Source: a virus (taxonomy: Duplodnaviria; Heunggongvirae; Uroviricota; Caudoviricetes). From it: a stretch of DNA of 16,682 bases. Both the position numbers and the translations under genes were made by a program. The notes beneath the pieces were generated by a model. That model did no database searches and was not told the origin of the DNA. It worked only from the letters and a program-made list of their open reading frames with translations. Location of the stretch: the IMG/VR virus record IMGVR_UViG_2671180643_000014, one strand, 5' to 3'. This document shows, one piece after another, positions 2,515 through 7,357 of the stretch. Position 1 is the stretch's first letter, and each line of letters begins with the position of its first letter.

Positions 2515-2566
2515 GTGTTCAACACTTGACGTGTTTAACACCTGGGTTTAAATTGGTGTTCAACAC
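2515..2566. promoter_or_regulatory. Divergent promoter region with three palindromic operators GTGTT(C/T)AACAC
   Basis: Operators at 2515-2525, 2531-2541 and 2556-2566 bracket a rightward -35 TTGACG (2526-2531) and -10 TAAATT (2549-2554). A leftward -35/-10 (TTGAAC / CATACT) is readable on the minus strand. Confidence 0.6.
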
Positions 2567-2663
2567 CTTGTTGGCGCAAGGTGCAGAAACGACGAAACCC
2601 GGCAGTGCGCTAACACTAACCGGGCTTCTAACCACCAACGATAGCGAAAGTATCGAGGTAGCT

Positions 2664-2867
2664 ATGAGAAATCATACCACACACCCGCAAGGGCGGGACT
2701 CGCACAACCTGAATAAATACATCTGGCGTTTTATCGCCCTGAGCACGGCACAACCGCGCGTGATTACCATTGAGGCCACCAGCGAACAGGAAGCACGCCA
2801 GCAATCCCCGGCTGGCTGCGTGATGGTATTCGCTGCCCGTATTCGTCAGGGGTCACATCATGCGTAA
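2664..2867 (+). CDS. Icd/Ash-like small protein (P4-type immunity-region protein), paralog 1
   Basis: 67 aa, GAGG Shine-Dalgarno 6 nt upstream. C-terminal block YIWRF...EATSEQEARQQ...FAARIRQG is shared with the gene at 3154-3327. The family assignment is from memory of P4-like prophage annotations. Confidence 0.5.
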   Translation: MRNHTTHPQGRDSHNLNKYIWRFIALSTAQPRVITIEATSEQEARQQSPAGCVMVFAARIRQGSHHA

Positions 2868-2989
2868 AAACCGCTTGCAAAAAATTATCACGGGGCTGTA
2901 TGCTTCCCCCGTCGCCCACATGGCGACCGGGTTTGACAGCCTGAATACATCTGGCGGACAGCCGCCCACATCCGATAAGCGGTTTTTTT
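2866..2989 (+). ncRNA. Candidate structured RNA or complex terminator between the two Icd-like genes
   Basis: An 11-bp perfect long-range stem (aaaaaccgctt at 2866-2876 pairs with aagcggttttt at 2977-2987) encloses three local hairpins and is followed by a 7-T run. Pairings were read by eye, not computed. Confidence 0.3.
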
Positions 2990-3103
2990 GTGTCCGTAAA
3001 CCTACCCATACCCGCATTATGGCGGGGCGTAACGGGGGAGCCTTTGTGCTCGCTGGTTTCCAGATGACCAGTCTGTCAACCCTGTTACGTCTCGCCACCA
3101 TGT

Positions 3104-3134
3104 TTGACAGCGTAGTAGCGAGACTCCTTAAAAT
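3104..3134 (+). promoter_or_regulatory. Candidate sigma70-type promoter for Icd-like paralog 2 and the downstream cassette
   Basis: -35 TTGACA at 3104-3109 and -10 TAAAAT at 3129-3134 (19-bp spacer, on the long side). GGGAG Shine-Dalgarno and ATG 3154 follow. Confidence 0.35.
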
Positions 3135-3153
3135 TCATCTGGGAGCCTTTCAC

Positions 3154-3327
3154 ATGGCTGTATCCGCACGCCCTTATTTTGTCTGGCGCTTTATGCAGTG
3201 CCAGGAAAAACAAACCTCACTCTTTACCGTCACGGCAGCAACAGAACGCGAAGCCCGCGCCCAGCTGCCGCACGCACATCTGATTTTTGTCGCCCGTATT
3301 CGTCAGGGGGAAACCTATGCACAATAA
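3154..3327 (+). CDS. Icd/Ash-like small protein, paralog 2
   Basis: 57 aa; YFVWRF...TAATEREARAQ...FVARIRQG aligns with paralog 1. Start chosen at the ATG with an upstream GGGAG; the in-frame ORF extends upstream to 2860, so the start is uncertain. Confidence 0.5.
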   Translation: MAVSARPYFVWRFMQCQEKQTSLFTVTAATEREARAQLPHAHLIFVARIRQGETYAQ

Positions 3328-3538
3328 AACCACGCCGGACGCAGCCGCCGCCGCGCTCACTACGCTGATGCATGCGCTTATTGATATTGAATGCACAGCA
3401 GGGCTTGCACAAAAGGAAGAACGGGAAGAATACACATTGTTCGCCCTGGAATGTATTCGATACATCGCAACGCGGTCGCTGAATGACGCTAAAAATATTC
3501 TTGTTGCTGATTGTGAAAATGGGGGTGGTTATGCGTGA
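3317..3538 (+). CDS. Hypothetical small protein (73 aa)
   Basis: AGGGGG Shine-Dalgarno 6 nt before ATG 3317. Overlaps the stop of the upstream gene. No recognisable motif. Confidence 0.5.
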   Translation: MHNKTTPDAAAAALTTLMHALIDIECTAGLAQKEEREEYTLFALECIRYIATRSLNDAKNILVADCENGGGYA

Positions 3539-3764
3539 TGATCGTTTTAATTCCCTGAAACAGGAATTTTCCGGCGTTCCTGATGATGCGGCTGATGCGC
3601 TTTCGTCAATGCCAGAATTTATTAGAGCGGCTTTTTTCTTACTTTCCACGAGAGAATATAAATCAACGGGGCTTGATGTACTGAATATCGCCGCCGATTA
3701 TGCGGAATATGTGGCAGAGGCGCGTTATAGAAGAAAATTTCCTGAGGATGTAAGCCATGCGTGA
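3531..3764 (+). CDS. Hypothetical small protein (77 aa)
   Basis: ATG 3531 overlaps the upstream stop in an ATGCGTGA junction. GGGGGTGG Shine-Dalgarno. Confidence 0.5.
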   Translation: MRDDRFNSLKQEFSGVPDDAADALSSMPEFIRAAFFLLSTREYKSTGLDVLNIAADYAEYVAEARYRRKFPEDVSHA

Positions 3765-3990
3765 TATTTACCTCGAAACAATAGACCGCGCATTTCTTGC
3801 ACTTTCTCACAGTGAAAGCATGATGGAAATATTACGCATATGGCTTGAAACACTTGGCGACAATGAACGCGACAAACAAAAATCAAGAATTGCCACGGCA
3901 TTAATAACGCTTCTTGAGCCTGTAATAATGGAACTGCAAGAAATAGATATATTGCACGACAGATATAAAGAACAGCACACCGGAGAATAA
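3757..3990 (+). CDS. Hypothetical small protein (77 aa), AT-rich gene
   Basis: Second ATGCGTGA start/stop overlap at 3757-3764. Visibly AT-rich compared with neighbours. Confidence 0.5.
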   Translation: MRDIYLETIDRAFLALSHSESMMEILRIWLETLGDNERDKQKSRIATALITLLEPVIMELQEIDILHDRYKEQHTGE

Positions 3991-3995
3991 AAATA

Positions 3996-4295
3996 ATGAA
4001 ACTTAAATATTCTGGCTTAACTGCCAGTGGCAACACTCACCCTAAATTTACGCGCGGCGATATTTACCGCGACCAGTACGGCGGCACCGTAACGATTAAA
4101 GGTGTAGAAGAGCGACGCATTACCTACCGCCGTGAAGGCTACGAATATGACTGCGTGATGCCTGTTTATCAGTTCCGGCGTGATTTTTCTCTGGTACAGG
4201 CAGCGCCCCGCAGTAAACCAACCAGCAGGGAGAAAGCACGCGCCAATATTCAGGAAATAAAAAAGATGCTTAACGTATTCAGGGGTAAGAAATGA
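3996..4295 (+). CDS. Hypothetical protein (99 aa) immediately upstream of primase
   Basis: GGAG upstream of ATG 3996; stop overlaps the primase start (ATGA). No recognisable domain. Confidence 0.55.
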   Translation: MKLKYSGLTASGNTHPKFTRGDIYRDQYGGTVTIKGVEERRITYRREGYEYDCVMPVYQFRRDFSLVQAAPRSKPTSREKARANIQEIKKMLNVFRGKK

Positions 4296-6040: not shown

Positions 6041-6052
6041 TTTTTTGTAAAA

Positions 6053-6277
6053 GCCCTCTACCCCATCTACCTGAATGAAATAAACGCATATTATTCAACA
6101 TGATAAGTAGGTAGAGGGCCAGGTAGAAGGCTAATAAAAGCTCTCTACCTCTTCTACCTGATTTTATCAGTTTCAGGTAGCAGGGTAGACGGCAGGTAGA
6201 GGAGCCAAAAAAGCTATCTACCCGCTGAAAGCCGCGCCATTACTGACATGATGAGCATTCGGGTAGATGGGTAGAGG
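6053..6277. repeat. Iteron array, putative replication origin
   Basis: About 12 copies of GGTAGA/TCTACC in both orientations, mostly as doublets spaced about 10 bp apart, for example ccctctaccccatctacc, aggtagagggccaggtagaagg, ctctctacctcttctacc and gggtagatgggtagagg. Confidence 0.75.
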
Positions 6278-6323
6278 GGGGGAGGCACAACTAAAAACTT
6301 TTTAAACGAGGGGGTGAAAATAA

Positions 6324-7333: not shown

Positions 7334-7357
7334 AGCCGGAGAAATCCGGCTTTTTTT
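7334..7357 (+). terminator. Intrinsic terminator
   Basis: AGCCGGA-gaaa-TCCGGCT stem-loop followed by a 7-T run. Confidence 0.75.

What the first reader, a model, noticed from the sequence alone, without database searches (positions are those of the whole stretch)
3317..4295. Four-gene cassette of unknown small proteins, translationally coupled, between the immunity region and primase
Genes of 73, 77, 77 and 99 aa have no recognisable motifs. Two junctions use the identical overlap ATGCGTGA (3531 and 3757). The 3757-3990 gene is visibly more AT-rich than the island backbone, suggesting imported cargo. This position, just upstream of the replication gene, is where P4-like elements carry helper-manipulating genes such as the helper derepressor.
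Basis: inference. Interest (0 to 1): 0.5.

Follow-up and report, generated by a model that had tools for sequence, protein, structure and literature searches.

The report
Early-operon small genes of a phage satellite
The four small genes are real, conserved early genes of an E. coli capsid-forming phage satellite; the last is the published regulator RgdR, so this is mostly known biology with a few new details.

Summary
The four + strand ORFs exist exactly as described: 3317-3538, 3531-3764, 3757-3990 and 3996-4295. All evolve under purifying selection. At least part of the cassette occurs in 1383 of 5426 complete E. coli genomes.

The element is a capsid-forming PICI (cf-PICI) next to phoQ, not a P4 phage. 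ORF4 does have a recognisable motif. It is a DUF4222 protein, 91% identical to RgdR/ECs1581, the published regulator of type III secretion and motility carried by E. coli PICIs.

ORF1 and ORF2 are two halves of one functional unit. Their junction is a G-tract whose length differs between islands (G4-G11). The tract gives a fused 154-aa protein in about 28% of haplotypes; in this window it is interrupted and locked in the split state.

ORF3 is an acidic two-helix hairpin. Its family sits directly upstream of rgdR in 130 of 138 records and is AT-rich in every allele, so it is not recent cargo.

Upstream lies a P1/P4-type C4 antisense RNA. One of its loops is complementary to the ribosome-binding site of icdB, the first cistron of the overlapping gene chain that runs to the primase.

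No ORF resembles P4 epsilon, Ant or a known defence protein. The functions of ORF1-3 remain unknown.

The parts
2515..2566 (+). Promoter-like site (TTGACG-17-TAAATT, 2526-2554) flanked and overlapped by three copies of the palindrome GTGTTYAACAC (2515, 2531, 2556). Candidate start and operators of the rightward early operon.
   Evidence: Promoter scan, consensus match only. The palindrome gives 7 strand-matches in the window against 0.54 expected, and 0 of 200 shuffles reach that.
2664..2867 (+). icdA, first Icd-like gene (67 aa)
   Evidence: NCBIfam phage_ICD_like 1.4e-19; phrog_6196 1e-45.
2898..2947 (+). a1/b1 target sequences of the C4 antisense RNA
   Evidence: Rfam RF03163, 46.8 bits against a gathering score of 46.7.
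3015..3102 (+). C4 antisense RNA (P1/P7 c4 and P4 CI type immunity RNA)
   Evidence: Rfam RF01695, 72.6 bits against a gathering score of 45, full-length match. The P4 CI RNA scores 74.9 bits with the same model as a positive control.
3135..3147 (+). Predicted C4 target (a2/b2-like) covering the Shine-Dalgarno sequence GGGAG of icdB
   Evidence: 13-nt antiparallel complementarity (2 G-U pairs) to the loop of the second C4 hairpin, 3055-3067. The SD lies 8 nt before the ATG at 3154.
3154..3327 (+). icdB, second Icd-like gene (57 aa) and head of the overlapping gene chain. The longer ORF 2860-3327 is probably over-called because it runs through the RNA module.
   Evidence: The Icd domain lies only in residues 107-149 of the long ORF. 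The short form keeps the PHROG hits.
3317..3538 (+). ORF1 (73 aa, pI 4.7), the N-terminal half of a unit that is a single 154-aa protein in other islands
   Evidence: phrog_5146 1.8e-13; matches positions 1-76 of phrog_2512. dN/dS 0.23. Fused relatives are shown.
3521..3528 (+). GGGGGTGG, the interrupted remnant of a hypervariable poly-G tract. It is also the Shine-Dalgarno sequence of ORF2, and its length decides whether ORF1 and ORF2 are fused or split.
   Evidence: Alignment of junctions. Census of 83 distinct haplotypes, G4 to G11. G6 against G7 in near-identical O157-type islands.
3531..3764 (+). ORF2 (77 aa, pI 4.8), the C-terminal half of the same unit, with its own ATG
   Evidence: Matches phrog_2512 positions 78-154 at 6e-49, and phrog_24341 at 4e-41. 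dN/dS 0.22.
3757..3990 (+). ORF3 (77 aa, pI 4.8, GC 0.39), an acidic two-helix hairpin and the near-constant upstream neighbour of rgdR
   Evidence: phrog_2196 1e-40. AlphaFold2 pLDDT 91.9, helices 2-32 and 37-75. dN/dS 0.51. An ORF3-family gene lies upstream of rgdR in 130 of 138 records.
3996..4295 (+). ORF4 = rgdR orthologue (99 aa, pI 10.1, DUF4222, RGD at residues 20-22, K35)
   Evidence: Pfam PF13973 3e-24. 90.9% identity to the copy in O157:H7 strain 86-24, which carries all six diagnostic residues of ECs1581 (PMC3378721).
4292..6040 (+). Primase-helicase (D5_N, DUF5906, Pox_D5). Its start overlaps the rgdR stop (ATGA).
   Evidence: Pfam; 40% identity to P4 alpha residues 326-756.

Best explanation
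**What it is.** The four ORFs are the conserved middle section of the long rightward early operon of an E. coli capsid-forming PICI. The operon order is: promoter near 2526-2554, icdA, [a1/b1 - C4 RNA - icdB], ORF1, ORF2, ORF3, rgdR, primase, ssb, perC, then a terminator near 7334.

**Shown by the sequence and comparisons**
- All four ORFs are real coding genes, each with its own Shine-Dalgarno sequence.
- They form a chain of overlapping or abutting cistrons that starts at icdB and ends in the primase.
- ORF4 is an orthologue of RgdR. RgdR is a small basic DUF4222 protein with published non-specific DNA binding and pleiotropic effects on transcription.
- ORF1 and ORF2 are two parts of one functional unit. 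A slippery poly-G tract, which doubles as the ORF2 ribosome-binding site, makes them one 154-aa protein or two proteins in different islands. In this window the tract is interrupted, fixing the split form.
- ORF3 is an acidic helical hairpin that almost always accompanies rgdR.

**Inferred, by analogy with the P1 immI region (c4-icd-ant) and the P4 CI RNA**
- In the resident island the C4 RNA pairs with the ribosome-binding site of icdB.
- The untranslated leader then lets transcription terminate. Because the cistrons are coupled, ORF1-4 and the primase are switched off and on as one block.
- On induction (in Gram-negative PICIs, AlpA expression triggered by the helper phage) the block is expressed.

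**Most likely roles, inferred with low certainty**
- RgdR, with ORF3 as its acidic partner, is a DNA-binding co-factor tied to the start of element replication and to transcriptional reprogramming.
- ORF1/ORF2 is a protein-binding adaptor of the same early programme.
- They are not recently imported cargo and not homologues of the P4 helper derepressor.
For: **Element identity**
- int, alpA, Icd-like genes, primase, SSB and PerC.
- HK97-type capsid, S78 protease, portal, head completion protein, connector, HNH, TerS and TerL; phoQ forms the right flank.
- The same layout is annotated in E. coli H19.

**Operon**
- No + strand terminator-like site with more than 3 G-C pairs lies between the promoter-like site at 2526-2554 and 7334.

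**Coding**
- dN/dS of 0.17-0.51; PHROG hits.
- Found in 1383 of 5426 genomes, 760 of them with at least 80% coverage.

**RgdR**
-.

**Fusion and split of ORF1/ORF2**
- phrog_2512 spans both ORFs; 154-aa proteins exist.
- Tract census over 83 haplotypes: G7 18, G8 31 plus 6 interrupted, G9 20, G10 4, G11 2 plus 1 interrupted, G4 1.
- 7 of 71 groups with identical flanks hold more than one tract length.
- G6 against G7 with only one other difference in 2 kb.

**ORF3-rgdR pair**
-.

**C4 module**
-.

**Link between DUF4222 and replication genes**
- rgdR abuts D5_N primase, RepA/AAA_25 helicase, DUF927 primase and P4-family primase in different islands.
- In all 17 species-level loci the DUF4222 ORF overlaps the start of the next gene by 4-44 nt. 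That gene was identified as a replication initiator, or in e14 an HTH_36 N-terminus fused to TerL, in the types checked; the 100-aa gene of L179 had no family.
Against: - The C4 module is optional. It is absent, at the Rfam gathering score, from 9 of the 12 other PICI loci scanned, including an O157 island, although those loci keep icdA and rgdR and in most cases ORF1-3. C4 control therefore cannot be the general reason for the arrangement.
- Every ORF has its own SD, so coupling is not obligatory.
- Deleting rgdR lowers type III secretion in uninduced O157 (PMC3378721). rgdR is therefore expressed without helper induction, perhaps from an internal promoter such as the consensus match at 3901-3929.
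- pri plus ori alone replicate in EcCICFT073 (PMC6092414), so the cassette is not essential for replication.
- rgdR alleles do not co-vary with the replicase type.
- No structural or sequence relative gives a function for ORF1-3.
- The ORF1-ORF2 model is low-confidence, pLDDT 50.
- Some tract-length differences could be homopolymer sequencing errors.
Confidence: 0.5

Rival explanations
1. Helper-manipulating module. ORF1-3 would be small antirepressor-like or derepressor-like proteins that act on a helper prophage. They occupy the slot that holds ant in P1 (c4-icd-ant) and epsilon in P4 (CI RNA-epsilon), and are released when C4 immunity is lifted.
For: - The order matches P1 immI and the P4 left operon: C4/CI RNA, icd, small genes, primase.
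- The slot between icd and the ORF3-rgdR pair varies in gene content between islands, as expected for genes in an arms race.
- The proteins are small, acidic and helical, typical of protein-binding inhibitors.
Against: - There is no similarity to P4 epsilon (PF25738), to orf151 or Cnr, or to Ant/Bro/KilA-N domains.
- Most islands carry the cassette without C4.
- Gram-negative PICIs are reported to be induced by their helpers through alpA, not the reverse, and EcCIEDL933 does not interfere with its helpers.
Confidence: 0.15
2. Replication-control module. RgdR/DUF4222, with ORF3, would be an accessory or negative regulator of the element's replication initiator or of its translation. This would be functionally analogous to P4 Cnr, which sits directly upstream of alpha. 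The effects on type III secretion and motility would then be side effects of a basic DNA-binding protein.
For: - A DUF4222 gene abuts or overlaps the start of the replication gene in PICIs that carry four different replicase families.
- It does the same in e14/SfIV-like lambdoid prophages with three different initiator N-termini.
- P4 has a small gene (orf106, annotated DUF5375; cnr by name from my own knowledge) at the same place.
Against: - pri-ori alone replicates.
- RgdR alleles reassort freely with replicase types, which argues against a specific protein-protein contact.
- RgdR is unrelated to Cnr/DUF5375.
Confidence: 0.25
3. Host-reprogramming module. RgdR would act as an antagonist of nucleoid silencing, for example of H-NS, and ORF1-3 as its modulators. 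The benefit would go to the resident island and its host, rather than to the transfer cycle.
For: - The published phenotypes are LEE1 up, motility down and Congo-red binding up, with non-specific DNA binding, and they are active from the uninduced island (PMC3378721).
- By my own knowledge of hns mutants this pattern resembles loss of H-NS function. This is an inference, not tested.
- The basic RgdR protein is encoded next to acidic partners.
Against: - No H-NS link has been published or tested here.
- The same domain sits in lambdoid phages in front of the replication gene, which a purely host-directed role does not explain.
- ORF1-3 have no reported phenotype.
Confidence: 0.2
4. The G-tract polymorphism is an artefact of homopolymer sequencing errors, or neutral slippage with no consequence. 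ORF1 and ORF2 would then be simply two independent genes.
For: - All three reading frames are populated at roughly comparable frequency, 28%, 48% and 24%, as neutral drift would give.
- ORF2 keeps its own ATG and SD in every state.
- Distant relatives are mostly single-domain proteins of 70-90 aa.
Against: - Lengths from G4 to G11 occur in finished genomes and in drafts.
- Interrupted, fixed versions exist (GGGGGTGG, GGGGTGGG).
- In-frame fusions are annotated as intact 154-aa proteins in many O157 genomes.
Confidence: 0.3

Closest known systems
RgdR (ECs1581) of O-island 51 / cryptic prophage CP-933C of E. coli O157:H7 (Flockhart et al. 2012, PMC3378721)
   Same: - ORF4 is 99 aa, basic (pI 10.1), has DUF4222, RGD at residues 20-22, and Q27, K35 and R61.
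- It is 90.9% identical to the copy in strain 86-24, which matches all six diagnostic residues of ECs1581.
- It has the same position directly upstream of the island's replication gene, and the island is at the same roxA/phoQ chromosomal site.
   Different: - A10 and R45 replace D10 and H45. Both substitutions occur in ED1a ECED1_1787, and the CFT073 variant C1493, which was active, has D10A.
- The downstream replicase is a D5_N/P4-alpha-like primase, not a DUF927 protein.
- The genes upstream differ.
- The regulatory activity of this allele was not tested.
Early operon of E. coli PICIs and cf-PICIs (EcCICFT073, EcCIEDL933; Fillol-Salom 2018 PMC6092414; Alqurainy et al., bioRxiv 10.1101/2022.09.08.507074)
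   Same: - The layout is int, alpA, Icd-like gene, small genes, rgdR, pri/rep, ssb, perC, followed in cf-PICIs by a complete head and packaging module.
- RgdR is stated to be encoded by all analysed E. coli PICIs.
   Different: - The set of small genes between icd and rgdR differs between islands. This window has ORF1-ORF2-ORF3; strains 86-24 and STE15 have genes of 61 aa, 63 aa and an ORF3-like gene.
- This island also carries a C4 antisense RNA module that most others lack.
- None of ORF1-3 is named or characterised in those papers.
Left operon of satellite phage P4 (vis - CI RNA - epsilon - orf151 - cnr/orf106 - alpha)
   Same: - The gene order and logic match.
- Vis and AlpA are 45% identical, and alpha and the primase 40% identical.
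- The Rfam C4 family hits both.
- P4 also has 8-nt start/stop overlaps between its small genes.
   Different: - ORF1-4 are not homologous to epsilon (PF25738), orf151 or Cnr (DUF5375).
- The best signals are weak: ORF4 against the N-terminus of orf151 gives BLASTP E 0.023 and hhalign probability 6.7%, and ORF1-2 against epsilon gives 12%.
- The element makes its own capsids.
immI region of phages P1/P7 (c4 antisense RNA - icd - ant)
   Same: - It has a C4 RNA with upstream a1/b1 targets, followed by an Icd-like gene whose ribosome-binding site is complementary to a C4 loop.
- The downstream genes overlap that first cistron.
   Different: - The genes after icd are ORF1-3, rgdR and a primase, not an antirepressor.
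- A second icd-like gene precedes the RNA.
- Control by C4 is inferred, not shown.
Homopolymeric-tract contingency loci (phase variation in Neisseria and Haemophilus; my own knowledge)
   Same: A G-run of 7-11 bases whose length differs between otherwise near-identical sequences and shifts the reading frame.
   Different: - The shift does not switch a gene off. ORF2 keeps its own start, so the tract toggles between one fused and two separate proteins.
- No switching rate has been measured.
- In this window the tract is interrupted.

Membership tests
Capsid-forming PICI (cf-PICI) | Integrase plus AlpA-type regulator plus primase/replication gene at the left end | tested here: met
   int 1-1230; AlpA PF05930 1.5e-16; D5_N/DUF5906 primase.
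Capsid-forming PICI (cf-PICI) | Own head and packaging module (capsid, protease, portal, head-tail connectors, HNH, TerS, TerL) with no tail or lysis genes; size about 10-18 kb | tested here: met
   Pfam hits for all eight proteins at 7924-14310. The next gene is host phoQ. The island spans about 15 kb of the window. Criteria are as listed.
Capsid-forming PICI (cf-PICI) | Induced by a helper phage and packaged into its own small capsids with helper tails | not testable with these tools
   Experimental property.
RgdR family (ORF4) | DUF4222 domain in a protein of about 99 aa encoded on a prophage-like island | tested here: met
   PF13973 3e-24, residues 16-68; 99 aa.
RgdR family (ORF4) | RGD tripeptide at residues 20-22, and K35, which are important for activity | tested here: met
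   The sequence reads ...KFTRGDIYRDQYGGTVTIK... with R20, G21, D22 and K35.
RgdR family (ORF4) | Activates LEE1/type III secretion and represses motility | not testable with these tools
   Phenotype from PMC3378721. The host of this window is unknown.
P4 epsilon helper-derepression protein | Membership of Pfam PF25738 (Derepression protein family) or detectable similarity to P4 epsilon | tested here: not met
   P4 epsilon hits PF25738 at 2.9e-50. ORF1-4 have no such hit at E<=1. BLASTP finds nothing. The best hhalign probability is 12% over 24 columns.
P4 Cnr (orf106, DUF5375) and orf151 | Sequence or profile similarity | tested here: not met
   No similarity to Cnr. ORF4 against the N-terminus of orf151 is weak only: E 0.023, hhalign probability 6.7%.
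P1-type immI module (c4-icd-ant) | C4 antisense RNA with a1/b1 targets and an Icd-like gene downstream | tested here: met
   RF01695 72.6 bits; RF03163 46.8 bits; NF033153 4.2e-14.
P1-type immI module (c4-icd-ant) | Antirepressor (Ant/Bro/KilA-N type) downstream of icd | tested here: not met
   No Pfam, NCBIfam or PHROG antirepressor hit for ORF1-4.
Known anti-phage defence systems | Match to a PADLOC-DB model | tested here: not met
   No hit at E<=0.1 for ORF1-4, the fused form or neighbouring small genes.
Phase-variable contingency locus (ORF1/ORF2 junction) | Homopolymeric tract whose length varies between closely related sequences and changes the reading frame | tested here: met
   G4-G11 over 83 haplotypes; 7 of 71 identical-flank groups hold more than one length; G6 against G7 in O157-type islands.
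Phase-variable contingency locus (ORF1/ORF2 junction) | High, reversible switching rate within a clone, with a phenotypic consequence | not testable with these tools
   This needs amplicon sequencing and protein detection. In this window the tract is interrupted (GGGGGTGG).

The most novel reading that the evidence does not exclude
The ORF1/ORF2 poly-G tract would be a true contingency switch, or a slippage site, that lets E. coli PICIs alternate between a fused and a two-subunit early protein. The C4-controlled, coupled chain icdB-ORF1-ORF2-ORF3-rgdR-primase would be the long-sought immunity and commitment circuit of a subset of Gram-negative PICIs. Within it, ORF1-3 would act on helper or host proteins. 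DUF4222/RgdR would be a general factor coupled to replication initiators, shared by satellites and by e14/SfIV-like lambdoid phages, where it is an unannotated gene hidden inside ymfM.
Probability: 0.15. Interest if true: 0.65.

Novelty: new member of a known kind. Interest (0 to 1): 0.4.

Why it matters
E. coli PICIs and cf-PICIs are very common; at least part of this cassette is in about a quarter of complete E. coli genomes. They move virulence and defence genes, yet two things remain open: how Gram-negative islands are kept silent, and what their small early genes do.

This analysis adds four points:
- It places one of the four genes in a published regulator family (RgdR) that affects EHEC virulence.
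- It shows that RgdR travels with a fixed acidic partner (ORF3) and always sits in front of the element's replication gene.
- It shows that ORF1 and ORF2 belong together.
- It points to a P1/P4-type antisense RNA as a candidate immunity element in a subset of islands.

Each point turns into a simple genetic test. None of them overturns current understanding.

Tried and rejected
**Searches that found nothing useful**
- DNA search of the cassette against 50,697 phage records: no match. The cassette belongs to chromosomal islands, not to deposited phages.
- NCBIfam: nothing for ORF1-4.
- PDB sequence search: nothing for ORF3, ORF4 or the fused ORF1-2.
- PADLOC: nothing.
- Paper searches for PF13973, and for 'C4 antisense' together with PICI: no papers.

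**Structure**
- The AlphaFold2 model of the fused ORF1-ORF2 had pLDDT 50. It is all-helical but unusable for fold search.
- The ORF3 model is confident, but it is a plain helical hairpin.
- Foldseek against PDB and BFVD gave no hit at E<=0.001.
- The afdb50 library was not available.

**Ideas rejected**
- Paralogy between ORF1, ORF2 and ORF3, suggested by equal lengths and the shared MRD start: BLASTP and hhalign find nothing.
- Homology to P4 epsilon, orf151 or Cnr.
- ORF3 as recent AT-rich cargo.
- Minus-strand ORFs as the real genes.

**Limited result**
- The exhaustive profile search found only 62 clusters among 1.84 billion representatives. The ORF1/ORF2 family is tiny and offers no annotated distant relatives.
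Full report
**Observation.** The octamer ATGCGTGA forms the stop/start overlap at 3531 and at 3757. It occurs once more, at 10349, against 0.68 copies expected, and 8 of 200 shuffles reach three copies. The upstream Icd-like gene overlaps ORF1 by 11 nt. ORF3 and ORF4 are 5 nt apart. The ORF4 stop overlaps the primase start (ATGA). ORF3 is AT-rich (GC 0.393 against 0.513 for the window), but ORF2 has the same third-position GC of 0.346.

**Are they genes?** Yes.
- Each ORF matches a PHROG family, with E-values from 1.8e-13 to 6e-49.
- Median dN/dS against orthologues from other loci is 0.23, 0.22, 0.51 and 0.17 for ORF1-4. For comparison, ssb gives 0.08 and icdA 0.36.
- The antisense ORFs have no credible family.
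- Megablast finds at least part of the cassette in 1383 of 5426 complete E. coli genomes, and at least 80% of it in 760. The matches are almost all chromosomal.
- There is no DNA match in deposited phage genomes.

**What the element is.** It is a capsid-forming phage-inducible chromosomal island (cf-PICI), not a P4 phage.
- The window runs int (1-1230), alpA, a divergent YlcI/YnfO gene, two Icd-like genes, the cassette, a D5_N/DUF5906 primase, SSB and PerC.
- It then carries an HK97-type capsid, S78 protease, portal, head-completion and connector proteins, HNH, TerS and TerL.
- The next gene is host phoQ.
- This is the organisation described for EcCIEDL933 and its relatives, and it matches the annotation of a near-identical cassette in E. 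coli H19.

**ORF4 is RgdR.** ORF4 matches Pfam DUF4222 at 3e-24. The literature identifies the DUF4222 gene of O-island 51/CP-933C as rgdR (ECs1581). RgdR is 99 aa with pI 10 and an RGD motif at residues 20-22. It activates the LEE1 promoter and type III secretion, represses motility, raises Congo-red binding and binds DNA non-specifically (PMC3378721 and PMC10877973). Fillol-Salom et al. state that RgdR is encoded by all analysed E. coli PICIs (PMC6092414). ORF4 is 90.9% identical to the copy in O157:H7 strain 86-24, which carries all six diagnostic ECs1581 residues. ORF4 keeps R20-G21-D22, Q27, K35 and R61. The statement 'no recognisable motifs' therefore fails for this gene.

**ORF1 and ORF2 are one unit joined by a variable G-tract.**
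- phrog_2512 is a 154-residue family. ORF1 matches its positions 1-76 and ORF2 its positions 78-154.
- An O157 island encodes exactly such a 154-aa protein, and a protein search found 495 clusters matching this fused query.
- Aligning the junctions shows a poly-G run just before ATGCGTGA. G7 gives the fusion. G8 gives the split with the ATGCGTGA overlap. G9 puts ORF1 in the third frame, which PGAP flags as 'frameshifted'.
- A census of 83 distinct haplotypes from IMG/VR and complete genomes gives: G4 1, G7 18, G8 31 plus 6 interrupted, G9 20, G10 4, G11 2 plus 1 interrupted.
- That is about 28% fused, 48% split and 24% third frame.
- Seven of 71 groups with identical 200-bp flanks hold more than one length.
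- Two O157-type islands differ by G6 against G7 and by only one other base in 2 kb.
- ORF2 always keeps its own ATG, and the G-run doubles as its Shine-Dalgarno sequence.
- In this window the run is GGGGGTGG, which fixes the split form.
- A profile search of 1.84 billion representatives finds only 62 clusters. The distant ones are mostly single-domain proteins of 70-90 aa matching one half, so two genes are probably the older state.
- I read the recurrent fusion as evidence that the two proteins act together.
- Whether the tract is a true phase-variation or slippage device, or neutral slippage with some sequencing error, cannot be decided here.

**ORF3.**
- AlphaFold2 gives a confident two-helix hairpin: pLDDT 91.9, helices 2-32 and 37-75.
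- Fold searches return only generic hairpins.
- ORF3 is not recent cargo. Islands with quite different small-gene sets (86-24, STE15, IHE3034) still carry a divergent ORF3 relative directly upstream of rgdR. These relatives are 28-46% identical, acidic, and have GC 0.32-0.39.
- A small HMM finds an ORF3-family gene in that position in 130 of 138 records.
- The AT-richness is therefore a property of the family.
- ORF3 evolves faster than rgdR (dN/dS 0.51 against 0.17).

**Architecture across islands.** Over 80 loci the order is icd, then optional small genes (h77, h213, a 121-aa gene), ORF1 (two allelic forms), ORF2, ORF3, rgdR, then either a primase or a RepA-type helicase, then ssb. Other islands have DUF927 or P4-family primases. 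The constant parts are the Icd-like gene, the ORF3-rgdR pair and a replication gene. The genes in between form a variable slot. rgdR alleles reassort freely with replicase types.

**DUF4222 and replication genes.**
- Weak tblastn hits led to e14/SfIV-like lambdoid phages.
- There the DUF4222 domain (7.9e-19) is encoded by an unannotated 59-77-aa ORF. It lies out of frame inside the 3' part of the annotated ymfM-like gene, and it overlaps the start of the replication initiator.
- A scan of one genome per species found 17 loci. All but one are titled as Enterobacteriaceae; the exception is a 'Vagococcus' draft. In all 17 the DUF4222 ORF overlaps the next gene by 4-44 nt.
- That next gene is an initiator with HTH_36/DnaD_N or another N-terminus plus a Phg_2220_C domain, or the PICI primase, in the types checked. 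In L179 it is a 100-aa protein with no Pfam match.
- This link to replication genes of at least seven kinds is the strongest contextual clue to the native role of RgdR.

**Upstream control.**
- Rfam finds a full-length C4 antisense RNA at 3015-3102 (72.6 bits) and its a1/b1 targets at 2898-2947. The P4 CI RNA scores similarly as a control.
- The loop of the second C4 hairpin (3055-3067) is complementary over 13 nt to 3135-3147, the Shine-Dalgarno region of an Icd-like gene starting at 3154.
- The 155-aa ORF 2860-3327 is therefore probably over-called. The real gene would be icdB, 3154-3327.
- In P1 (my own knowledge: Citron and Schuster 1990; Biere et al. 1992), C4 blocks icd translation, and Rho-dependent polarity then silences the coupled downstream ant gene.
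- By analogy, C4 here would silence the whole coupled chain icdB-ORF1-ORF2-ORF3-rgdR-primase. This would give the overlaps a purpose.
- The limits of this idea are stated in the next two paragraphs.

**Best explanation.** The cassette is the conserved core of the cf-PICI early replication operon.
- It is co-expressed with the primase. In this island it is probably gated by C4.
- RgdR, with ORF3, would be a DNA-binding co-factor associated with the start of element replication and with transcriptional reprogramming.
- ORF1/ORF2 would be a protein-binding adaptor.

**What argues against it.**
- The C4 module is present in only 3 of the 12 other PICI loci scanned.
- Every ORF has its own SD.
- rgdR is active in uninduced O157.
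- pri plus ori alone can replicate.

**Rivals.**
- A helper-manipulating, antirepressor-like module. The position fits, but there is no homology and no supporting biology.
- A Cnr-like replication regulator.
- A host-directed anti-silencing module.
- For the G-tract, neutral slippage or sequencing error.

**Comparison and novelty.**
- The layout parallels the P4 left operon and P1 immI. AlpA and Vis are 45% identical, the primase and alpha 40%, and both carry the C4 RNA.
- ORF1-4 are not homologous to epsilon, orf151, Cnr or Ant.
- No defence-system model matches.
- The finding is a new allele combination of a known, widespread island type, and one of its genes is already characterised.
- Four details appear not to have been described in the papers I could search:
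  - the G-tract toggle;
  - the ORF3-rgdR pairing;
  - the general DUF4222-initiator linkage, including the hidden ORF in ymfM;
  - the C4 RNA in a Gram-negative PICI.
- These are moderately interesting and easy to test.

Noticed in passing
window 2898-3102 (and 3135-3147): A P1/P4-type C4 antisense RNA with its a1/b1 targets lies inside the ORF that pipelines call a 155-aa 'Icd-like protein' (2860-3327). A C4 loop is complementary to the SD of a shorter icdB starting at 3154. The module occurs in only some PICIs. I found no paper linking C4 RNA to PICIs. It could be an immunity element for Gram-negative PICIs, whose repressor is unknown.
   Followed up: partly
window 2515-2566: Three copies of the palindrome GTGTTYAACAC (2515, 2531, 2556) bracket a promoter-like site (TTGACG-17-TAAATT) between the divergent YlcI/YnfO gene and icdA. 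None of 200 shuffles reaches the observed count. These are probably operators of the early promoter.
   Followed up: partly
L006 3438-3659 (Shigella phage SfIV); L007 3480-3659; L169-L184; e14 in L174/L176 4980-5159: In e14/SfIV-like lambdoid prophages an unannotated 59-77-aa DUF4222 ORF lies out of frame inside the 3' part of the annotated ymfM-like gene, and it overlaps the start of the replication gene. Both frames stay open in all 17 loci examined. ymfM was reported as an SOS-inducible division inhibitor, so the overlapping ORF may matter for that phenotype.
   Followed up: partly
window 3901-3929: A sigma-70-like site (TTAATA-17-AATAAT, preceded by TG) lies inside AT-rich ORF3, 67 nt before the rgdR start. 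It might explain the published activity of rgdR in uninduced islands. It is only a consensus match.
   Followed up: no
window 6041-6320: The AT-richer intergenic stretch after the primase holds short tandem repeats: a 12-mer at 6109-6131 and an 8-mer at 6261-6279. The origin with iterons lies in this position in E. coli PICIs.
   Followed up: no
window 15222-16682 (- strand): The right flank is host phoQ. The island therefore sits at the roxA/phoQ site used by the O157 island OI-51, but it carries a different replicase and a different small-gene set, which shows module exchange at one attachment site.
   Followed up: partly
L005 4210-4575; L002 3773-4006; L004 3624-3836; protein P0078: The slot between icd and ORF3 is mosaic. 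There are optional genes of 77, 70 and 121 aa, and two allelic forms of the middle of ORF1. One protein has an ORF2-like body that ends with the ORF3 C-terminus (HTGE). Junctions of the type ATGCxTGA/TAA recur and may serve as recombination joints.
   Followed up: partly
L172 (contig titled Vagococcus sp. WN89Y): A lambdoid DUF4222-initiator locus typical of Enterobacteriaceae appears in a draft genome labelled Vagococcus (Firmicutes). This is probably contamination of that assembly.
   Followed up: no
window 2591-2663 (- strand): A sub-threshold Rfam match to the SymR antitoxin RNA (33 bits against a gathering score of 61) lies just upstream of icdA on the opposite strand. It is probably chance.
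   Followed up: no
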